The notes beneath the pieces were generated by a model, which was not told where the DNA came from, did no database searches, and saw nothing but the letters and a program-made list of their open reading frames with translations. A program made the position numbers and the translations under genes. Source: Escherichia coli O157 typing phage 4. Taken from it: a DNA stretch of 64,000 bases. The DNA lies in sequence record KP869102; one strand, 5' to 3'. Within the stretch, counting starts at the first letter, position 1; every line of letters starts with the position of its first letter. Below are positions 4,125 to 26,305 of the stretch, one piece after another.

Positions 4125-6861
4125 CTGTGATCTGGAACGGGACTCCCATCATTTTAGAAGCTTGCCAGAAGCAATGTACCACCATCTCGCCCACAGGGCT
4201 CCAGATAAGTTCAAGCTTTCCGTCATCGTTCAGGATAGGATCGTACACCGTGTTTCCGTCTCTGTCAACCACTTCGTTTCCGTTTTCATCCTTGCGTGCC
4301 TTTTTGTACTTATGACCGTCGAACACATGAAGTTTGGCCTCCTGCTCTGCCTTAAATGCTTCCAATTCTTCAATTGTGTCGAAGGTGTACACAGTCTTAT
4401 ACTTCGGTGTGTCAGGTACTTGAAGCTGATATTCGTCATGGTAATAGATAATACGACGAACACCTTCATCGTACCACCCACGCTTCACCATTTGGTGGTG
4501 CATAAGTATCCCAACTAAGTCACACAGCGATGCACCACCATTCTGTTGGTATGCATTAAGTAAAGAGTGTTTAGATCGGGTCCAGATGGCATGACCATCA
4601 AAAGAGTAGATAAACTTCTTACCCGTTGCTTCCCAGAATTTCTCCAGATCCTCTTTACGCCCCTTAAGACCAGGGTTGGCATCCCAAAGTGCATCGATCA
4701 CCCTTTGTCCCAACTCTGGAGAGATGTCCAGCATATCTGCAACTTTATCTTTTTGTGCCCCGTACATAACCCCATACGTGATAGGTTTACCGTCGTTACG
4801 AGACACCTCTCTGCCTGCTACTTTTGTATATGCCTCAGCATTGTTTTGGTGTGCGTCCCCGTTACTTACAACATCATAATACAAGCCGTTGTCGAACTCA
4901 AAGGCACCCCAAGCCCCGATAAGCTGCTCTAAGTTGGACCCGTCAATACCGATCTCAAAGTATCCTGGAGGAACACCCCACAAGCTACGCATCTCTTTAC
5001 CCATAACCACTTTAGGAGAGGGTTTAGGCATGTTTGCACAAATACTGTGTTTCTGTCTGGAAGTGTTTGTTAATCCAGAGCTTTTAGCAGGAAGCTTATG
5101 GTCAATCTTCAAACGTGGGTGATTAAGAAGACCAGTGTCAACCTTATCCTCCTTGATTGGATCAAGTACCGATCTGCGGTTTCGCAATGATAACCATAAG
5201 ACGATATCTTTAGCCATCTCTCCGTTCAATTTTTCAAGATTCGGACACAGGTGTCCAAACGTATCTTTCAGTTGCGGAGAAGTAATAAGTGCCCTAGCTT
5301 TTCTACGTATTTTCCCGAATACTTCCTTTTTAATCCTTTCGGAGTTAGGAAAGCTTCGGAACTTGTGCACGGTTGTCTGGAACTTAGCATCAGTTTTGTT
5401 CCAGAAGTTGATAATTAGGTCACAATACTCTGACTCTAAAAGCTCGTCCATATATGCATATACTCGTGCATCAACATCTGCATCAGGTAGAGCTTTCTTC
5501 TTGCTGTCTTTAGTTACATCCTTAGTTCTCCACATTGTCGGAAGCCAACCAGCACTGATCAGGTATCGCTTAATGTCGTCCTGATTGCTGATTTTCATAG
5601 GTATCTTGCAGTCCGGCATTCGCTTCTGCTGTAGATCACTTATTGCCTGATCCATTAGCTCTTTAGGTAAAGGTTGTGGTGTGGAGGTGCCCTTAATATA
5701 ACCTCTCAAGAAATCAGCCATCTTGTCGGGGTCTTTGCAGCCCATCTCTTCGCACCATTTTATCCCCATCTTGCTGACATCTCCTGTGGAGGTAAATGCT
5801 CGCTTAGGCGGGGCTTTGAACTCTAAAGCGCTCATGTCTACAGGATAGCCAAGCTTATCTTTTAACCATTTCCAACCATTATTGGAGATTGTCCCATCTT
5901 GGTTAAACGGCTTTTCAGGGAACTTGGGCCGCTGAGACATTGACAGCTCTTTTAAAGGTAGTTGTGGTTCAACACGATCAGCTATTTCTTTCATCCACGC
6001 ATCACAACGGTCACGTAAAGCAATAGCTCCATCTATGTCAAAATACACACCCTGACGGGCCTGCAGCTCCATCAGGAAGTGCTGCAGCATGCCTCGGCGT
6101 AGTGCGTTCTTCCAGGTGATCTTCTTGAACCCTTTCGGCTTCTCTTTGGCAGGATCGTACATAAAGTTCTGCATGTCAGATTTGCCGTAGAATACACCTT
6201 TTGATTCCGCTACCAGCTCTTTCCAGAGCAGCTCCTGGATGATAACGTCCTCGAATACACGATCCACATACTTCCACAATGGAAGATCGCGCCAGTCATC
6301 AATTTGAACTTTCTGGTTACCAAGGGCGTAGCCCCATGCCATAAGGCCGTGAGGACCAACAGGCTGCATTTTCTTAGTAACCGGGTTGAATACAGAGTCC
6401 GGACAACCTTTTGGTAAAGGGCGATCAGGCCACAAGATTCGGCTCATCGCCAACGTATCAAACAGATTAACCTGGTGGTCGTTGATAGTCCCCATGCATT
6501 TAGGATCACGGAACATATCAAAATGAATACCGGATAATCTTTCCATCAGCATAAAGTCATAACTGTAGCAGTTATGGCAGTTCAAAGCTGTTGGTGACCA
6601 GTCGGAATTTCCTGTAAGCCAACCTTCCAACTCCGAAAAATCTGCTATGCGAACTTCAAAATCTTTATAAAGAGTTTTCTTTGCCAGAATAAAGTTCTTA
6701 GCCTTCTCTATATCCTCCTCGGAGTAGTGTGTGCGGTCATTTAGAGGAAGGAACAGCATAAAACGGTTCTTATTCAGCTCTTTAAACAGGCCGCAATGAT
6801 AATAAAGATCTGGGTCTTCCAAGAGCCCGGAGGCCTCCAGATCGAAGCACCAATTACTCAT
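4084..6861 (-). CDS. DNA polymerase, family A (Pol I/T7-like) with 3'-5' exonuclease domain
   Basis: 925 aa; exo motif FDLEASG; polymerase motif A-like DGSNLEQL, motif B KPITYGVMYG, motif C YYHDEYQ. Confidence 0.9.
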   Translation of the reverse strand: MSNWCFDLEASGLLEDPDLYYHCGLFKELNKNRFMLFLPLNDRTHYSEEDIEKAKNFILAKKTLYKDFEVRIADFSELEGWLTGNSDWSPTALNCHNCYSYDFMLMERLSGIHFDMFRDPKCMGTINDHQVNLFDTLAMSRILWPDRPLPKGCPDSVFNPVTKKMQPVGPHGLMAWGYALGNQKVQIDDWRDLPLWKYVDRVFEDVIIQELLWKELVAESKGVFYGKSDMQNFMYDPAKEKPKGFKKITWKNALRRGMLQHFLMELQARQGVYFDIDGAIALRDRCDAWMKEIADRVEPQLPLKELSMSQRPKFPEKPFNQDGTISNNGWKWLKDKLGYPVDMSALEFKAPPKRAFTSTGDVSKMGIKWCEEMGCKDPDKMADFLRGYIKGTSTPQPLPKELMDQAISDLQQKRMPDCKIPMKISNQDDIKRYLISAGWLPTMWRTKDVTKDSKKKALPDADVDARVYAYMDELLESEYCDLIINFWNKTDAKFQTTVHKFRSFPNSERIKKEVFGKIRRKARALITSPQLKDTFGHLCPNLEKLNGEMAKDIVLWLSLRNRRSVLDPIKEDKVDTGLLNHPRLKIDHKLPAKSSGLTNTSRQKHSICANMPKPSPKVVMGKEMRSLWGVPPGYFEIGIDGSNLEQLIGAWGAFEFDNGLYYDVVSNGDAHQNNAEAYTKVAGREVSRNDGKPITYGVMYGAQKDKVADMLDISPELGQRVIDALWDANPGLKGRKEDLEKFWEATGKKFIYSFDGHAIWTRSKHSLLNAYQQNGGASLCDLVGILMHHQMVKRGWYDEGVRRIIYYHDEYQLQVPDTPKYKTVYTFDTIEELEAFKAEQEAKLHVFDGHKYKKARKDENGNEVVDRDGNTVYDPILNDDGKLELIWSPVGEMVVHCFWQASKMMGVPFQITGEYLCGRNWGDCH

Positions 6862-16120: not shown

Positions 16121-16130
16121 NNNNNNNNNN
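16121..16130. other. assembly gap (N10)
   Basis: Run of 10 N. Confidence 0.95.
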
Positions 16131-16440: not shown

Positions 16441-16450
16441 NNNNNNNNNN
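16441..16450. other. assembly gap (N10)
   Basis: Run of 10 N. Confidence 0.95.
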
Positions 16451-16605
16451 GCACGATTGCATACCTTTGACAGATAATCTCATTACAGAGCGTTTAAGAG
16501 CTTCCTACAAACAAATCTCTCTTTCGAGCGTAGCGAGAACGCACGTCCGTTTTGACCCAAATCACCATACGCTCGGATTTTAACCAAACCCTCGCGGCGT
16601 TTCTA

Positions 16606-16634
16606 TTGACACATTACCGCTCCAGTGATAATAT
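16606..16634 (+). promoter_or_regulatory. sigma70-type promoter (TTGACA-17-TAATAT)
   Basis: -35 TTGACA at 16606-16611, 17-nt spacer, -10 TAATAT at 16629-16634; ATG at 16667 follows. Confidence 0.5.
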
Positions 16635-16666
16635 CCACACATAGTTTGTAGAATATGGGGTACACT

Positions 16667-16756
16667 ATGAGAACATTGTCCGAAGTTTTGGTGGTGATCC
16701 TGATGATCATTACGTCCATAGCGGCTGTTGCCGGAATACTCACGGGTGGAACATGA
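16667..16756 (+). CDS. hypothetical 29-aa hydrophobic micropeptide
   Basis: Manual ORF MRTLSEVLVVILMIITSIAAVAGILTGGT just downstream of the promoter; weak RBS. Confidence 0.35.
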   Translation: MRTLSEVLVVILMIITSIAAVAGILTGGT

Positions 16757-16965
16757 TAAACACACATGCATCTGAAGAGACATCCAAAGGAGTGACTATA
16801 TGTCCCTTGGCTGAGCCAGTGAAAGAGGAAAACTTCGATTCTGAAGATTCTCCATCTTCGCTCCAGGTAGATCCTGAGGCTGATGACCTAACGTGGGAAG
16901 ACATCGTAGATATCTGGTTCTCTATTATGCCTGAGCACGAAGAGTTCAGGGGTGGTAGACTATGA
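16753..16965 (+). CDS. hypothetical acidic protein
   Basis: ORF track 70 aa; same strand as promoter; no clear RBS. Confidence 0.3.
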   Translation: MINTHASEETSKGVTICPLAEPVKEENFDSEDSPSSLQVDPEADDLTWEDIVDIWFSIMPEHEEFRGGRL

Positions 16966-17086
16966 AGCACCGAGCCCACACAGGTTCCTCATGCTAAAGC
17001 ATGGCCTGAAGAGGCAAACGTGCATAATTCCTGTACATTGGGACGTATAAAACCCTGTTCACATTCTCATTTCCAGAGGAGATTTC

Positions 17087-17302
17087 ATGAAGATAGAAAT
17101 ATTTGGTGGAGCTGACAATACTCGTGGCCTGATTTACCTTGAATTCGATGAATCATACCTGCCAGAGGTGTTAAATATGGACTCTGTTGCTGATGCTTTG
17201 GGAGTAAGTCCTAAAGATCTCTACTCTGGTGCTGAGATTGATGGTTGGGAGGAGACCATGAACATTGATTTCAGTGAAGTAGGTGATGAACCACTGGACT
17301 GA
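17087..17302 (+). CDS. hypothetical acidic protein
   Basis: ORF track 71 aa; RBS AGGAGA upstream of ATG. Confidence 0.5.
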   Translation: MKIEIFGGADNTRGLIYLEFDESYLPEVLNMDSVADALGVSPKDLYSGAEIDGWEETMNIDFSEVGDEPLD

Positions 17303-18142
17303 CACACAATTAGCTACCCGGCTAAAGTGCTGGGAGCACCTATAACACATCTTTCAACTAAATTTCCTACCACCACAATCACTTACCTCCCACACATGAC
17401 TGTTTGCTTGTTTAGTGAGCAGTCATGCCTTGACATTCTTGCCTATCCTGATAAAATTAAGTTCTTCTCTTTTCTTTTACCGAGTAATTCGGGTTTTCTG
17501 TTCTCTTCGGTTTGAAGGGGTATGGAGATACACCTGAGTGAACAGGGTGAACAACCGAACATTTGGCTATGGCATTAGCATGGCGAAGCGGACGGGTGAC
17601 GAAAGAGGGGCCGGAGGACACCAGTCACTGCCATATGGTATATGGGTGATAACCTGAAGAGTCTGAATAAGTGTTTAAGTACCAGTCAGAGGAAAAGGTG
17701 AATGGTAGCCGAAGGGGGAGGGGGGTTTCTTGTATCTTTAATTTGTATATTATGTATACACTTGTAAACCAATCTCATTTGAATTTGTTTACCACACAAA
17801 GTGGATAGAGACAAATATTACCTATTAAACTTGAATTATTTATAGAAAATACCACAACACTACTTAAGTCTTTGATTTTACACACAAATCCTGCAGATAT
17901 TCACCCTCCATATTTAACATACTTGTAACATATTCCATACTCTACCTGCCCGATCAATTCACCCAACTACATCCCCATATTTTCCCTGTCTGTACTACCC
18001 CTGCCCCGCCGGGAGTCCCGTCATATCTGGCTTTCCAGCAAATATCACACCCACAAATATCATTGCCTGAAGAGGGTTTCGTCCCATAATACATGCCTTA
18101 CCTGAAGAGCGCTTCATATACCCCGTAAATTTTTTAATTGAC

Positions 18143-18172
18143 CCCCTCCCCGCCGCCGGAGGGGTCGGCTTT
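18143..18172 (+). terminator. possible intrinsic terminator hairpin (weak T-run)
   Basis: Stem CCCCTCC/GGAGGGG with loop CCGCCGCC followed by TCGGCTTTTCC. Confidence 0.25.
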
Positions 18173-18719
18173 TCCCACACAGACCTGAAGAGTCAGCCAG
18201 AAATATCTGAATGGACCCAATTCTGCCCTGTTATGAGCCGTAGCGACTGGAGTGCTGCCAGGCGGACGAAATGGGAATACTTCTCATTCTTATAACAATT
18301 CTCAAATATCGAGGCAGTGAGGCAAATTAATAGGTAAGGCCGTTCACATAGTGGCACAACATTTGCAGTCTATCTGATGTGGTTGAATGAGAATACCTAT
18401 CATTGTGAGAATAGTTATCATTACGGGCAATTTAACATAATACCCATTATGCGCACCACTGGCGATACATACAGGGATTGATAACATGAGTTACTGTTTA
18501 CGCATATAACAATTATATTTCTTATCATTTGTGTGGGATATAGTTAGCAGCCGATAGATTAGATATTGACCTGCGGACTTCTGACCGTCTAGACGTCTAA
18601 ACGCCCACACAACAAGGCTTATACATACATCGCTGAATGTAAACATGGCCGCAAAAATGCTACCATACAAGATTGTAAATTTTTCATGCAGCACTTGACA
18701 AAGAGGAGAAAAACTTGTC

Positions 18720-18762
18720 TGACACTTTAGACATACTGGTGACACAATATGACACTTTAGAC
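18720..18762. repeat. direct repeat, 2 x TGACACTTTAGAC
   Basis: Identical 13-mers at 18720-18732 and 18750-18762. Confidence 0.8.
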
Positions 18763-18779
18763 TTAATTGACATGCCTGA

Positions 18780-18956
18780 CTGTTTACGCTGTCACTATTC
18801 GCGCTATTACTATTCACTCCCTTTACTGTTCACGCTCTTACTGTTTACATGCTTAATGGTTTACATGCTTAATAGACTGCATGTCTAATAGTTTACATAG
18901 CTAACTGTTCACATACTTATCATTTACATGATTGACTGTTTACACAGAGATGATAA
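18780..18956. repeat. iteron-like array of TGTTTAC(A) motifs, including a tandem 16-bp unit
   Basis: (C)TGTTTAC at 18782, 18843, 18859, 18891, 18948 plus variants CATTTACAT, CTGTTCACAT, CTTTACTG; GTTTACATGCTTAATG twice in tandem at 18843-18874. Confidence 0.75.
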
Positions 18957-18963
18957 GCCATGA

Positions 18964-19234
18964 CATTCGTTTGCATGACAATAATTAACAAGATAACAAT
19001 TGACAAGCTAACAGCCAACAAGCTGACAATTAACTTGTTTACAATAGATGACATAATATAAAAGCAGGGCAACTATTAGAAGATCTATAGTTGCCTTGCT
19101 TGTTATGTCATGATTAACTAAATACAAGGCAACTATGATCTGATTAATAGTTTGCAAACAAACTATCACGGGGGTGATGGTTACTGCTTTTATATTATGT
19201 CGCGACTCCGTCGCGCCATGCCATTCGTTTGCAT
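18964..19234. repeat. 13-bp direct repeats CATTCGTTTGCAT bracketing the palindromic element
   Basis: Copies at 18964-18976 and 19222-19234. Confidence 0.8.
19050..19201. repeat. 152-bp element bounded by perfect 18-bp inverted repeats with nested palindromes (MITE-like or cruciform-forming)
   Basis: GACATAATATAAAAGCAG at 19050-19067 is the exact reverse complement of 19184-19201; internal inverted copies of AGGCAACTAT/ATAGTTGCCT and palindrome ATAGTTTG..CAAACTAT. Confidence 0.75.
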
Positions 19235-19850
19235 AGTTGCCTTATTGTTACAGATAAAATAATTGTATTGTTAATTATTTCTTATCTTTCTATTAGTCAT
19301 CTAATGATTCCAGTCAATATAGTAATGTACAGTAAACATTAGACGACTAAAGATTTATCTGCTTATAATAACTTACCGTGACAATTTCGGACTGTTTACG
19401 AAAAATGTTGGCACCTAAGCTGATTTATGTTATGCAGTTTACACGAATAATTATTTTATGCAGGTATTGACTATTCCATTATTCTATGGTTGGAATAAAT
19501 ACTTAGCAGACTATAGAATGGTGAGCGTACGTAAATTCTGAGATCTGGCGGCTATAGTTATACTCGATTTTTCACGTAGAGCACGCTTTTGTGGTTATGT
19601 AAGTGTATGACTTATAAAGATTTTTAGTTGTTGACAAGACACTGAAGATATGCATCAGGTTAAATTTTGTGCAATAGCTGCATTACGTGCAATTTTGGAA
19701 GGAAAAACGGGTAAAAATAGCCCTGCTACCACACAATGAAAAGTTATGCAATAGTTATTTTACATGTATATTTGTACAGTGTGTGGGGTTGATGGCTCGT
19801 CAATTATTCCACTTGCCAGGTAGGGCCGTTTATGGTAGGGGGAAGATCAG

Positions 19851-19876
19851 ACAAAAAGAAAGGGGCCTAAGCCCCT
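19851..19876 (-). terminator. intrinsic terminator
   Basis: Hairpin AGGGGC-CTAA-GCCCCT preceded on plus strand by an A-run (U-run on minus transcript), just downstream of the 19896 gene end. Confidence 0.55.
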
Positions 19877-19895
19877 TGATAATTCAGTTAAAAAA

Positions 19896-20315
19896 TTATA
19901 ATGATTCGTATATTTCAAAAATCCGATTTGCCAGGTCGTTACGGTACCGGAATTTTTCATCACGTTTGATCATAAGATCTTTATAGCCGTACTCTTTAAG
20001 CACTTCATTAACTTTATGGCGGCACACCTTCATATTATCCTGAGCGTCACCAATAAACCTGTTGCTATGGTGCATGGCTTTAATTTCTTCTTCCAGGACC
20101 AGGGCAACTATGCGGACCGGATCAAGCTGATAGGCGGTAACATCAATGCGGCATTGTAAACGGCTTTTTACGTCTGCCACCGGATATACTGCAACCTCTT
20201 CCCCGTCAACATTGACAATAATTAGTTTACCATCGATTTCGAATCCTTTCGCCGCCGGACCGTGACAAAAAGCGTTATCAAAGCTATATGCCGGATTATT
20301 AGATTTAATGTTCAT
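19896..20315 (-). CDS. hypothetical protein
   Basis: ORF track 139 aa; RBS GAGGTAAAAACACC before ATG. Confidence 0.5.
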   Translation of the reverse strand: MNIKSNNPAYSFDNAFCHGPAAKGFEIDGKLIIVNVDGEEVAVYPVADVKSRLQCRIDVTAYQLDPVRIVALVLEEEIKAMHHSNRFIGDAQDNMKVCRHKVNEVLKEYGYKDLMIKRDEKFRYRNDLANRIFEIYESL

Positions 20316-20354
20316 GGTGTTTTTACCTCTTAGTTAATTTTCTTACAACTTCCC

Positions 20355-20383
20355 TTTAAAAAAGAATATAGCAAAACTGCCGA
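20355..20383 (-). promoter_or_regulatory. sigma70-type promoter (TTGACA-17-TATATT on minus strand)
   Basis: Reverse complement gives TTGACA, 17-nt spacer, TATATT upstream of the 20315 start. Confidence 0.45.
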
Positions 20384-20460
20384 TCCTTGTCAATAAGGAT
20401 AGCATAATTTTTATGTGATCAAGGGGCTTTATTGCCCCCCTGACCATGTAACTTGTTGTA

Positions 20461-26295: not shown

Positions 26296-26305
26296 NNNNN
26301 NNNNN
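26296..26305. other. assembly gap (N10)
   Basis: Run of 10 N. Confidence 0.95.

What the first reader, a model, noticed from the sequence alone, without database searches (positions are those of the whole stretch)
16606..17302. Near-consensus host-type promoter driving a micropeptide and acidic small proteins
TTGACA-17-TAATAT is followed by a 29-aa hydrophobic peptide ORF and two acidic small ORFs on the plus strand, opposite to almost everything else in the window. The arrangement looks like an immediate-early unit, and such units often carry host-takeover or anti-defence factors.
Basis: partly seen in the sequence, partly recalled or inferred. Interest (0 to 1): 0.4.

Follow-up and report, generated by a model that had tools for sequence, protein, structure and literature searches.

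The report
Known rV5-type promoter, three small genes
This is a real, conserved host-type promoter driving a membrane micropeptide and two very acidic small proteins in an rV5-like E. coli phage, but the promoter was already predicted in 2013, the genes are already annotated as hypothetical, and the unit only looks isolated because the window is stitched from separate contigs.

Summary
TTGACA-17-TAATAT with an extended -10 TG lies at 16606-16634. It is followed by a 29-aa hydrophobic ORF (16667-16756), a 70-aa acidic ORF (16753-16965) and a 71-aa acidic ORF (17087-17302). The window is a Vequintavirus (rV5-like) scaffold.

In 16 related sequences the promoter elements are almost invariant while the spacer and 5'UTR vary. 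Three ORFs show coding-type substitution patterns; two further small ORFs in the region and rV5 'ORF161' do not.

The promoter is published as 'P162' of rV5 (2013). The ORFs are hypothetical proteins in over 100 GenBank genomes and have PHROG families. The 'opposite to everything else' context comes from N10 contig joins. In natural genomes the unit closes a long same-strand arm of small genes, just after an invariant terminator.

No function could be assigned: there were no family or solved-structure hits and the AlphaFold models were low confidence. Published restriction sensitivity of Vequintavirinae argues against Ocr-like anti-restriction.

The neighbourhood may be more interesting. Directly downstream lie a stronger promoter and a ~270-nt, nearly invariant candidate structured RNA absent from Rfam. 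Iteron-like repeats and an AT-rich stretch follow, which suggests an origin of replication.

The parts
16451..16518 (+). Variable intergenic DNA at the start of this contig. In natural genomes an intrinsic terminator after rV5 ORF160 lies just upstream and is cut off by the N10 join at 16441-16450.
   Evidence: The terminator AGGACGC-TCTGT-GGCGTCC plus T-run lies at L003 3967-3986, 15 nt before the position matching window 16451. It is invariant in 15 relatives. The synteny break at the N run is shown.
16519..16605 (.). About 87 nt that are nearly invariant and abut the -35. This is probably a non-coding cis element of unknown role. It is annotated as the C-terminus of rV5 'ORF161' (gp156), but that reading does not behave as coding.
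   Evidence: The block is almost invariant in 16 sequences, including L005, which is only 73% identical elsewhere. 'ORF161' has an in-frame stop in 5 of 16 sequences and pN/pS 1.31. Its RNA fold is unexceptional, z = -1.3. There is no second copy in the window and no counterpart in the L017 clade.
16606..16634 (+). Sigma-70-type promoter, identical to 'P162' of phage rV5: -35 TTGACA (16606-16611), 17-nt spacer, extended -10 TG (16626-16627), -10 TAATAT (16629-16634). The transcription start is inferred at about 16641-16643.
   Evidence: Searches show the site. Variable positions: -35 0 of 6, TGn 0 of 3, -10 1 of 6 (third position A/G), spacer 9 of 14; Fisher p = 2.4e-4. It is listed as P162 in Table S4 of PMC3606486.
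16667..16756 (+). pep29, a 29-aa predicted single-pass membrane micropeptide (MRTLSEVLVVILMIITSIAAVAGILTGGT).
   Evidence: The 29-aa form is kept in 14 of 16 sequences. It is cut to 26 aa in L011 and has a different 28-aa C-terminus in L005. pN/pS is 0.21 in this frame against 1.22 and 0.61 in the others, and 16 third-position columns vary against 8 and 8. It matches PHROG 34195 at E = 4e-21.
16753..16965 (+). Pb, a 70-aa acidic protein (net charge about -14). The N-terminal ~35 residues are variable and indel-rich. The C-terminal module DPEADDLTWEDIVDIWFSIMPEHEEFRGGRL is nearly invariant. The start overlaps the pep29 stop (ATGA), which suggests translational coupling.
   Evidence: The ORF is intact in 13 of 16 sequences and most indels are in frame. 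The C-part has pN/pS 0.33; the N-part shows no frame-specific signal. It matches PHROG 16356. AlphaFold predicts a disordered protein with one helix at residues 48-58, local pLDDT about 83. It is confined to close relatives.
16966..17086 (+). Conserved non-coding spacer between Pb and Pd, with the Pd Shine-Dalgarno sequence GAGGAG at 17076-17081. The 32-aa GTG ORF (16952-17050) and an 11-aa ATG ORF here are not supported as genes.
   Evidence: Neither ORF shows a frame-specific substitution pattern, and 1-2-nt indels shift the frame in relatives. The RNA fold has z = -1.25.
17087..17302 (+). Pd, a 71-aa acidic protein (net charge about -15.5). It is the most widely conserved gene of the unit.
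   Evidence: The 71-aa ORF is intact in 15 of 16 sequences; L005 reads 73 aa because a 10-nt deletion near the 3' end changes the C-terminus. pN/pS is 0.22 and variable columns by codon position are 12, 6 and 37. It matches PHROG 12108. A profile search of 1.84 billion proteins found only two further relatives, P0065 and P0066, apart from a probably spurious repeat match (P0067). P0066 lies in a syntenic position in a sister clade.
17395..17427 (+). A 14-bp hairpin, likely the 3' end or stabiliser of the P162 transcript. It sits immediately before the next promoter.
   Evidence: Folding 17296-17440 gives z = -3.79, with 0 of 200 shuffles as stable. The hairpin is nearly invariant in relatives. 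L017 has a different 10-bp hairpin at the same place. It has no U-tract, so termination is inferred.

Best explanation
Identity. The window is a scaffold of an rV5-like E. coli myovirus (genus Vequintavirus). The finding is the last transcription unit of the phage's long rightward arm of small genes, which is rV5 genes 82-163.

Proposed mechanism.
1. In the natural genome, transcription of the upstream genes stops at an invariant intrinsic terminator after ORF160.
2. About 170 nt later, host RNA polymerase with sigma-70 initiates at a promoter with a perfect -35 and an extended -10 (rV5 'P162').
3. The resulting ~0.8-kb mRNA encodes three real products:
   - a 29-aa single-pass membrane peptide;
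   - a translationally coupled 58-70-aa acidic protein, which is a disordered tail carrying an invariant C-terminal amphipathic helix;
   - a 71-aa acidic protein with its own strong ribosome-binding site.
4. The transcript probably ends at, or is stabilised by, a 14-bp hairpin at 17395-17427.

Shown: the anatomy, the conservation of the promoter elements, and coding selection on the three ORFs.

Inferred: use by sigma-70 holoenzyme, early timing, translational coupling, and the 3' end.

Function (inferred, low confidence). The two acidic proteins most likely act as small stoichiometric binders of host proteins, as the small early gene products of T4 and T7 do. The peptide most likely acts in the inner membrane. 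No specific target can be named.
For: Identity:
- 118 phage records match 16450-17800 at 90% identity or more, all but a few in full, and those examined are classified as Vequintavirus.
- Over 16451-17420 the sequence is 100% identical to O157 typing phage 14.

Natural context:
- The same-strand ORFs 142-163 lie upstream in rV5, JeffSchatz and typing phage 14.
- The rV5 paper defines a transcription unit 82-163.

Promoter:
- Site and score.
- Listed as P162 in the rV5 paper's Table S4.
- Enrichment of the TTGACA promoter class, 22 sites against 5.8 +/- 2.3 in shuffles.
- Promoter elements vary at 1 of 15 positions, flanks at 28 of 46, p = 2.4e-4.
- The upstream terminator is invariant in 15 relatives.

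Coding:
- pN/pS is 0.21 for pep29, 0.33 for the Pb C-part and 0.22 for Pd, and is low only in the annotated frames. Indels in Pb are mostly in frame.
- All three ORFs match PHROG families.

Sister clade (L017 and six other loci):
- A conserved TTGACT-17-TATTGT promoter with TG, whose spacer varies, precedes a small-ORF cassette that ends in the Pd homolog. A hairpin follows it.

Downstream end:
- The hairpin region folds with z = -3.79.
Against: - There is no experimental transcription start, timing or protein evidence. I found no Vequintavirus transcriptome.
- The -10 matches consensus at only 4 of 6 positions.
- The -35 lies at the edge of an invariant block of unknown function, so part of its conservation may have another cause.
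- Pb is frameshifted or truncated at its 5' end in 3 of 16 relatives, and its N-terminal third shows no coding signature.
- pep29 and Pb are absent from the sister clade, so only Pd is deeply conserved.
- The downstream hairpin lacks a U-tract, so read-through into the next unit is possible.
- The functional statement is inference only. There are no Pfam, NCBIfam or PDB hits, the AlphaFold models are poor (pLDDT 47 and 64), and the fold search gave nothing.
Confidence: 0.7

Rival explanations
1. The promoter is real but not immediate-early. It is one of about 33 sigma-70-type promoters spread over rV5-type genomes and fires through the early and middle period, or constitutively. The cassette would then be ordinary accessory cargo rather than a dedicated takeover or anti-defence unit.
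For: - The rV5 authors found sigma-70-like promoters across the whole genome and suggested the host polymerase may not be reprogrammed as in T4.
- The window alone holds about 22 TTGACA-type sites.
- pep29 and Pb are replaced by unrelated small ORFs in the sister clade, as expected for accessory cargo.
Against: - No timing data exist either way.
- The perfect -35, the extended -10 and the position in the small-ORF arm are typical of early phage promoters.
- rV5 encodes a Srd-like anti-sigma candidate, which implies some temporal control.
Confidence: 0.3
2. The acidic proteins Pb and/or Pd are DNA-mimic anti-restriction or anti-defence proteins of the Ocr, ArdA or Arn type.
For: - Their net charges are about -14 and -15.5 over roughly 70 residues.
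- They lie in an early-type small-gene arm.
- Pd is conserved across two clades.
Against: - Neither protein has sequence or profile similarity to any Pfam, NCBIfam or PDB entry.
- Pb is predicted mostly disordered with one helix, and the Pd model is low confidence.
- Vequintavirinae are reported as exceptionally sensitive to restriction-modification systems and to lack effective protection (PMC8594841).
Confidence: 0.07
3. The main role of transcription from this promoter is to read into the adjacent non-coding region (the structured-RNA candidate and putative origin). It would activate or prime replication, and the ORFs would be secondary.
For: - There is no canonical terminator between the Pd stop and 17480 on the + strand.
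- Iteron-like repeats and an AT-rich stretch lie 1.2-2 kb downstream.
- The rV5 paper reports a GC-skew change at 104425-105475, which by my coordinate offset is window ~17713-18763.
Against: - The downstream element has its own stronger promoter, 11 of 12 plus TG, at 17430-17457.
- A very stable hairpin separates the two units.
- The three ORFs are under clear purifying selection as proteins.
Confidence: 0.08
4. The promoter match is a chance motif and the small ORFs are spurious.
For: - Consensus scans give many hits: 33 sites in 10 kb against 21 expected at 9 of 12 or better.
- Two other small ORFs in the same stretch, and rV5 ORF161, are indeed not coding.
Against: - Conservation is specific to the promoter elements.
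- The site lies right after a terminator.
- pN/pS is frame-specific, indels are in frame, and a strong Shine-Dalgarno sequence precedes Pd.
- A positionally equivalent promoter is conserved in a second clade.
Confidence: 0.03

Closest known systems
Phage rV5 promoter P162 with ORF162 (gp157) and ORF163 (gp158) (Kropinski et al. 2013, PMC3606486; NC_011041)
   Same: - It is the same locus, about 96% identical.
- The published P162 sequence (TTGACA, 17-nt spacer, TAGTAT) aligns base for base with the window's site.
- ORF162 and ORF163 are listed as acidic (pI 4.2 and 4.0) proteins without function.
   Different: - The window has TAATAT instead of TAGTAT.
- The rV5 gene models differ from what the comparison supports here. 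gp157 (101 aa) runs a GTG-started extension of Pb across the micropeptide region in a frame with no coding signal, and the micropeptide is not annotated.
- gp158 (93 aa) carries a 22-aa N-terminal extension that is broken by 1-2-nt indels in relatives.
- gp156 ('ORF161') is not coding.
- The BASEL records (for example JeffSchatz bas55_0131 to 0134) are closer to the models supported here.
Sigma-70-dependent early promoters and small early ORFs of T4 and T7 (established knowledge, recalled from memory)
   Same: - A strong host-type promoter drives short ORFs of unknown or host-modulating function.
- ORFs overlap at start and stop codons.
- Small acidic and small membrane proteins are frequent products.
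   Different: - No homology to any T4 or T7 early protein was detected.
- Neither timing nor toxicity has been tested for this unit.
Ocr, ArdA and Arn DNA-mimic proteins (recalled from memory)
   Same: Small size and a strongly negative net charge.
   Different: - No sequence similarity was found.
- There is no confident fold.
- The host phages are reported to be restriction-sensitive.
Small hydrophobic bacterial and phage peptides of about 30 aa, such as TisB-type type I toxins or membrane-protein modulators like KdpF and AcrZ (recalled from memory)
   Same: pep29 is 29 aa with one hydrophobic span of about 19 residues, and its peptide sequence is under purifying selection.
   Different: No homology was found, no antisense RNA was looked for, and pep29 is co-transcribed with and translationally coupled to a cytoplasmic acidic protein. 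This is a resemblance only.

Membership tests
E. coli sigma-70-type promoter (rV5 'P' class) | A -35 close to TTGACA, a 16-18-nt spacer, and a -10 with A at position 2 and T at position 6 | tested here: met
   TTGACA, 17-nt spacer, TAATAT; 10 of 12 matches.
E. coli sigma-70-type promoter (rV5 'P' class) | Extended -10 TGn, present in 11 of the 33 predicted rV5 promoters | tested here: met
   TG at 16626-16627 is invariant in 16 sequences. The count of 11 comes from the rV5 paper.
E. coli sigma-70-type promoter (rV5 'P' class) | Promoter elements conserved more than the spacer and flanks in relatives | tested here: met
   1 of 15 element positions varies, against 28 of 46 flanking positions, p = 2.4e-4. 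Caveat: the -35 adjoins an invariant block.
E. coli sigma-70-type promoter (rV5 'P' class) | Mapped transcription start and dependence on sigma-70 holoenzyme; early timing | not testable with these tools
   I found no Vequintavirus transcriptome or transcription-start data.
Orthologs of rV5 ORF162/ORF163; PHROGs 34195, 16356 and 12108 | Significant full-length match and the same genomic position | tested here: met
   PHROG E-values are 4e-21, 4e-50 and 2e-46. tblastn finds both acidic proteins in 117 Vequintavirus records. Synteny is shown.
Ocr/ArdA-type DNA-mimic anti-restriction proteins | Strongly acidic small protein | tested here: met
   Net charges are about -14 (Pb) and -15.5 (Pd).
Ocr/ArdA-type DNA-mimic anti-restriction proteins | Sequence or profile homology to a known mimic family | tested here: not met
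   There are no Pfam, NCBIfam or PDB-sequence hits at E of 1 or better.
Ocr/ArdA-type DNA-mimic anti-restriction proteins | A folded surface that imitates the charge pattern of B-DNA | tested here: inconclusive
   The AlphaFold models have pLDDT 47 (Pd) and 64 (Pb, mostly disordered). The BFVD fold search gave no hit at E of 0.001 or better.
Ocr/ArdA-type DNA-mimic anti-restriction proteins | The phage is protected from restriction-modification systems | not tested
   This rests on the literature only. Vequintavirinae are reported as exceptionally RM-sensitive (PMC8594841), which argues against this role.
Helix-turn-helix DNA-binding proteins (considered for Pd because of the '...VADALGVSPKDLYS...' stretch) | Match to an HTH family profile | tested here: not met
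   There is no Pfam or NCBIfam hit at E of 1 or better. A net charge of about -15 also makes DNA binding unlikely. The resemblance was recalled from memory only.
Type I toxin-like or regulatory membrane micropeptides | A short single hydrophobic span with selection on the peptide sequence | tested here: met
   29 aa, GRAVY +1.73, pN/pS 0.21.
Type I toxin-like or regulatory membrane micropeptides | Homology to a known family, an antisense RNA partner, or toxicity on expression | not tested
   The only match is to a PHROG of unknown function. Antisense RNA and toxicity were not examined.

The most novel reading that the evidence does not exclude
Pd (71 aa, acidic) is functionally tied to the conserved element next to it. 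In two phage clades that share little else in this region, the same order is kept: sigma-70 promoter, small-ORF cassette ending in Pd, hairpin, second sigma-70 promoter, then a ~270-nt nearly invariant RNA with compensatory base changes, which in the window is followed by iteron-like repeats.

The most novel reading not excluded is that this is a new phage module. In it, a structured non-coding RNA absent from Rfam and a small acidic protein would act together, for example in origin activation or control, or as an RNA-protein host-takeover or anti-defence device. The membrane micropeptide and Pb would be exchangeable accessories.
Probability: 0.15. Interest if true: 0.6.

Novelty: already known. 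Interest (0 to 1): 0.2.

Why it matters
As given, the finding matters little. It re-discovers a promoter predicted in 2013 and hypothetical genes already present in public annotations, and no function can be attached to them.

The work does yield cleaner gene models for a widely used phage group (rV5 and the BASEL phages Bas48-59):
- a real 29-aa membrane peptide that the rV5 record misses;
- two over-extended ORFs;
- one annotated ORF that is not coding.

If the acidic proteins proved to be host-protein inhibitors, they would add to the catalogue of small phage effectors. They are conserved within the genus and experimentally accessible through the BASEL collection.

The adjacent candidate structured RNA and the putative origin are the parts of this neighbourhood that could open a new question.

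Tried and rejected
- **Family and structure searches for pep29, Pb, Pd and the Pd homolog P0066.** Pfam, NCBIfam and PDB-sequence searches gave nothing; PHROGs gave only families of unknown function.
- **Word-based search of 5.8 billion proteins.** It returned only close relatives, 67% identity or more.
- **Exhaustive HMMER profile search for Pd.** It added two relatives (P0065, P0066) and one probably spurious repeat hit (P0067).
- **AlphaFold2 on both acidic proteins.** Confidence was low. A BFVD fold search with the Pd model gave nothing, so I ran no further fold searches because the models are unreliable.
- **Possible homology between Pb and a 71-aa ORF in L017 ending '...REEF'.** Rejected by hhalign, probability 0.2%.
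- **The 32-aa GTG ORF, the 11-aa ORF and rV5 ORF161 as genes.** Rejected because they show no frame-specific selection and carry frame-breaking indels or stops.
- **The invariant block 16519-16605 as a structured RNA or a repeated regulatory element.** The fold is unexceptional and there is no second copy. It remains unexplained.
- **Rfam.** No match in the whole window at gathering thresholds, and none at E of 5 or better in 16451-20400 apart from two chance eukaryotic hits. There are no tRNAs.
- **Short-pattern scans of IMG/VR and metagenomes for more copies of the RNA.** These gave mostly chance matches. A local nhmmer filter left only two clades.
- **RNAalifold covariation for the CU-rich/GA-rich helix.** The count is over-stated because the MAFFT alignment is shifted by one column there, so I do not rely on it.
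- **Literature searches for Vequintavirus transcriptomes, non-coding RNAs or anti-defence genes.** Nothing relevant was found.
Full report
**What the window is**

The stretch 16450-17800 matches 118 phage records at 90% identity or more. Those I examined are classified in genus Vequintavirus, the rV5-like E. coli myoviruses. Some carry 'Campylobacter phage' names, including the UNVERIFIED record A142. Over 16451-17420 the window is 100% identical to E. coli O157 typing phage 14.

The window contains three runs of exactly 10 N, at 16121-16130, 16441-16450 and 26296-26305. The DNA on either side of the first two runs is not adjacent in any reference:
- The left part (to 16120) is the rIIA/rIIB/helicase region. 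It maps to 114.6-117.7 kb of typing phage 14.
- The finding's segment maps to 83.6 kb of the same record.
- The 310-bp piece between the two N runs maps about 17 kb away from the finding's segment in phages nimi and BP9.

The window is therefore a scaffold of contigs. The neighbourhood to the left of 16451 is not natural.

**The observation**

- The promoter is TTGACA (16606-16611), a 17-nt spacer, TAATAT (16629-16634), with TG at 16626-16627 giving an extended -10. It scores 10 of 12.
- A 29-aa hydrophobic ORF follows at 16667-16756.
- A 70-aa ORF at 16753-16965 has a net charge of about -14, and its ATG overlaps the peptide's stop codon as ATGA.
- After a 120-nt spacer with the Shine-Dalgarno sequence GAGGAG, a 71-aa ORF at 17087-17302 has a net charge of about -15.5.

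**Is it more than chance?**

As a class, yes. TTGACA occurs 77 times in the window against 36.6 +/- 6.0 in block shuffles. TTGACA with a usable -10 occurs 22 times against 5.8 +/- 2.3.

For this site, I aligned the window with 15 related sequences. Thirteen came from GenBank phages and two from IMG/VR contigs, and they are 73-100% identical to the window. Variable positions were:

| Segment | Variable positions |
|---|---|
| -35 | 0 of 6 |
| TGn | 0 of 3 |
| -10 | 1 of 6 (third position, A/G) |
| Spacer | 9 of 14 |
| Discriminator and start region | 5 of 11 |
| 5'UTR | 14 of 21 |

Comparing promoter elements with flanking positions gives Fisher p = 2.4e-4. One caveat applies: the -35 forms the 3' edge of an ~87-nt block (16519-16605) that is itself almost invariant. 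Its conservation therefore cannot be credited to promoter function alone.

**Which ORFs are real**

Pairwise Nei-Gojobori counts on the alignment gave the following:

| ORF | pN/pS in annotated frame | Other frames | Other evidence |
|---|---|---|---|
| pep29 | 0.21 | 1.22, 0.61 | third-position columns 16 vs 8 and 8 |
| Pd (71 aa) | 0.22 | 1.18, 1.97 | variable columns by codon position 12, 6, 37 |
| Pb, C-terminal part | 0.33 | 0.81, 1.54 | C-terminal module nearly invariant |
| Pb, N-terminal third | 0.43 | 0.50, 0.52 | many in-frame indels; frameshift or deletion in 3 of 16 |

Pb's N-terminal third behaves like a disordered linker. The module DPEADDLTWEDIVDIWFSIMPEHEEFRGGRL is nearly invariant in 27 cluster representatives.

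Three other ORFs show no coding signal:
- the 32-aa GTG ORF at 16952-17050;
- an 11-aa ORF at 16962;
- rV5 'ORF161' (gp156), which has an in-frame stop in 5 of 16 sequences and pN/pS 1.31.

The rV5 record's 101-aa gp157 extends Pb across the micropeptide region in a frame with no coding signal. Its 93-aa gp158 extends Pd over a stretch broken by 1-2-nt indels. The BASEL annotations are closer to the supported models. The 33-aa start at 16655 is lost in L005, which favours the 29-aa form.

**Natural context**

In rV5, JeffSchatz, typing phage 14, FV3 and the other relatives fetched with upstream sequence, the unit is preceded by a long run of same-strand small ORFs (rV5 ORFs 142-161). Kropinski et al. 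place it in transcription unit 82-163.

Fifteen nucleotides before the point where the window's contig begins, all relatives carry an invariant intrinsic terminator, AGGACGC-TCTGT-GGCGTCC plus a T-run. The promoter therefore starts a separate transcription unit.

Downstream of Pd there is a 14-bp hairpin at 17395-17427. The region folds with z = -3.79, and 0 of 200 shuffles are as stable. Beyond it begins the 2.6-kb stretch that the rV5 paper calls 'non-coding'. Leftward genes converge on that stretch from the other side. The unit's 'opposite orientation' is thus simply the end of one of the four arms of the genome. Its same-strand arm was lost from the window at the contig break.

**Prior knowledge**

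- The promoter is listed as 'P162' (103296..103341, TTGACA-N17-TAGTAT) in Table S4 of the rV5 paper.
- ORF162 and ORF163 are listed there as pI 4.2 and 4.0 proteins without homologs or function.
- All three ORFs have PHROG families of unknown function.

**Function**

Nothing could be assigned.
- Pfam, NCBIfam and PDB-sequence searches were empty.
- The 5.8-billion-protein search returned only close relatives.
- AlphaFold2 gave pLDDT 47 for Pd. For Pb it gave pLDDT 64, with a disordered chain and one helix at residues 48-58.
- The BFVD fold search was empty.

An exhaustive profile search found two more distant Pd relatives. One of them, P0066 (about 42% identical), lies in a 138-kb metagenomic phage contig (L017) with the same convergent architecture. 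In seven loci of that clade:
- A TTGACT-17-TATTGT promoter with TG is conserved while its spacer varies.
- It precedes an unrelated 48-aa ORF and then the Pd homolog.
- In two loci there is also an inserted hydrophobic small ORF.
- A hairpin follows the cassette.

Pd and the promoter position are therefore conserved across two clades, whereas pep29 and Pb are confined to Vequintavirus.

The BASEL study reports that Vequintavirinae are exceptionally sensitive to restriction-modification systems. That weighs against an Ocr-like role for the acidic proteins.

My best, low-confidence inference is that Pb and Pd are small binders of host proteins and that pep29 acts in the inner membrane.

**Neighbouring features, outside the finding**

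A second and better promoter lies directly after the hairpin: TTGACA-16-TAAAAT with TG at 17430-17457, scoring 11 of 12. It precedes about 270 nt (17463-17736) that are almost 100% invariant across the Vequintavirus loci. That is far more conserved than the flanking genes. The stretch has no credible ORF and no Rfam match.

The L017 clade has a homologous element behind its own promoter. Comparing the two clades shows several compensatory changes:
- The hairpin CCGAGUAAUUCGG is replaced by CCAGAAUACGCUUCUGG at the same place.
- UUCGGUU/AACCGAA becomes UUCGGAU/AUCCGAA inside otherwise invariant blocks.
- UAUGGCA/UGCCAUA becomes UAUCGCA/UGCGAUG.
- A 3' hairpin with the conserved loop GUUUAAGUACC shows G-C to A-U and A-U to G-C swaps within the L017 clade, with G-U intermediates.

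Only these two clades were found, so the statistics are thin. One RNAalifold helix is unreliable because of an alignment shift.

Further on lie iteron-like repeats of ACTGTT(T/C)AC-type units at 18480-18945. An AT-rich region (32-34% GC) with many inverted repeats follows at about 18850-19450. The rV5 paper reports a GC-skew change at 104425-105475, which by my coordinate offset is window ~17713-18763. This layout suggests the replication origin.

**Verdict**

The finding is a real but ordinary and already described feature, with a context claim that is an assembly artefact. Interest is low. The adjacent RNA candidate and putative origin deserve their own follow-up.

Noticed in passing
window 17430-17736: A stronger sigma-70 promoter (TTGACA-16-TAAAAT with TG, 11 of 12) is followed by about 270 nt that are almost invariant across the Vequintavirus loci. 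The stretch has no credible ORF and no Rfam match. A homologous element with compensatory base changes sits behind its own promoter in a sister clade (L017 5287-5590). This is a candidate new structured phage RNA.
   Followed up: partly
window 18480-19450: Iteron-like direct repeats (ACTGTT(T/C)AC..., at least 8 copies, 18480-18945) are followed by an AT-rich stretch (32-34% GC) with several inverted repeats. They lie inside rV5's published 'non-coding' region and next to the GC-skew change the rV5 paper reports. This is probably the replication origin.
   Followed up: partly
window 16121-16130, 16441-16450, 26296-26305: Runs of exactly 10 N mark joins between contigs. At the first two joins the flanking pieces are 17-31 kb apart in complete Vequintavirus genomes, so gene order and relative orientation across them are not biological. 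The third join was not checked.
   Followed up: partly
window 16519-16605: An ~87-nt block abutting the promoter's -35 is nearly invariant, even in a relative that is only 73% identical elsewhere. The ORF annotated over it (rV5 gp156) is not coding. The RNA fold is unexceptional, there is no second copy, and the block is absent from the sister clade. Its role is unexplained.
   Followed up: partly
window 17395-17427: A very stable 14-bp hairpin (region z = -3.79) lies between the Pd stop and the next promoter. A different hairpin occupies the same position in L017 (5255-5278).
   Followed up: partly
L011 (phage ECP32), inserted after window position 16725: A 70-nt insertion whose first 13 nt (TGTTGCCGGAATA) repeat the sequence that follows it sits inside the micropeptide ORF and truncates it to 26 aa. 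It looks like a small mobile-element footprint or a duplication.
   Followed up: no
L032 and L022, between L017-equivalent positions 4823 and 4824: Two members of the sister clade carry a ~92-nt insertion. It creates a hydrophobic small ORF (MRVSDVTDTAISYCLFSLAIISAILCVAG...) just upstream of the Pd homolog. This loosely echoes the pairing of pep29 with an acidic protein in the window.
   Followed up: no
whole window: TTGACA is about twice as frequent as expected (77 against 36.6 +/- 6.0). About 22 sites also have a usable -10, many of them directly upstream of co-oriented ORFs, for example 20393(-), 21140(-) and 39139(+). This fits the roughly 33 sigma-70-type promoters reported for rV5.
   Followed up: partly
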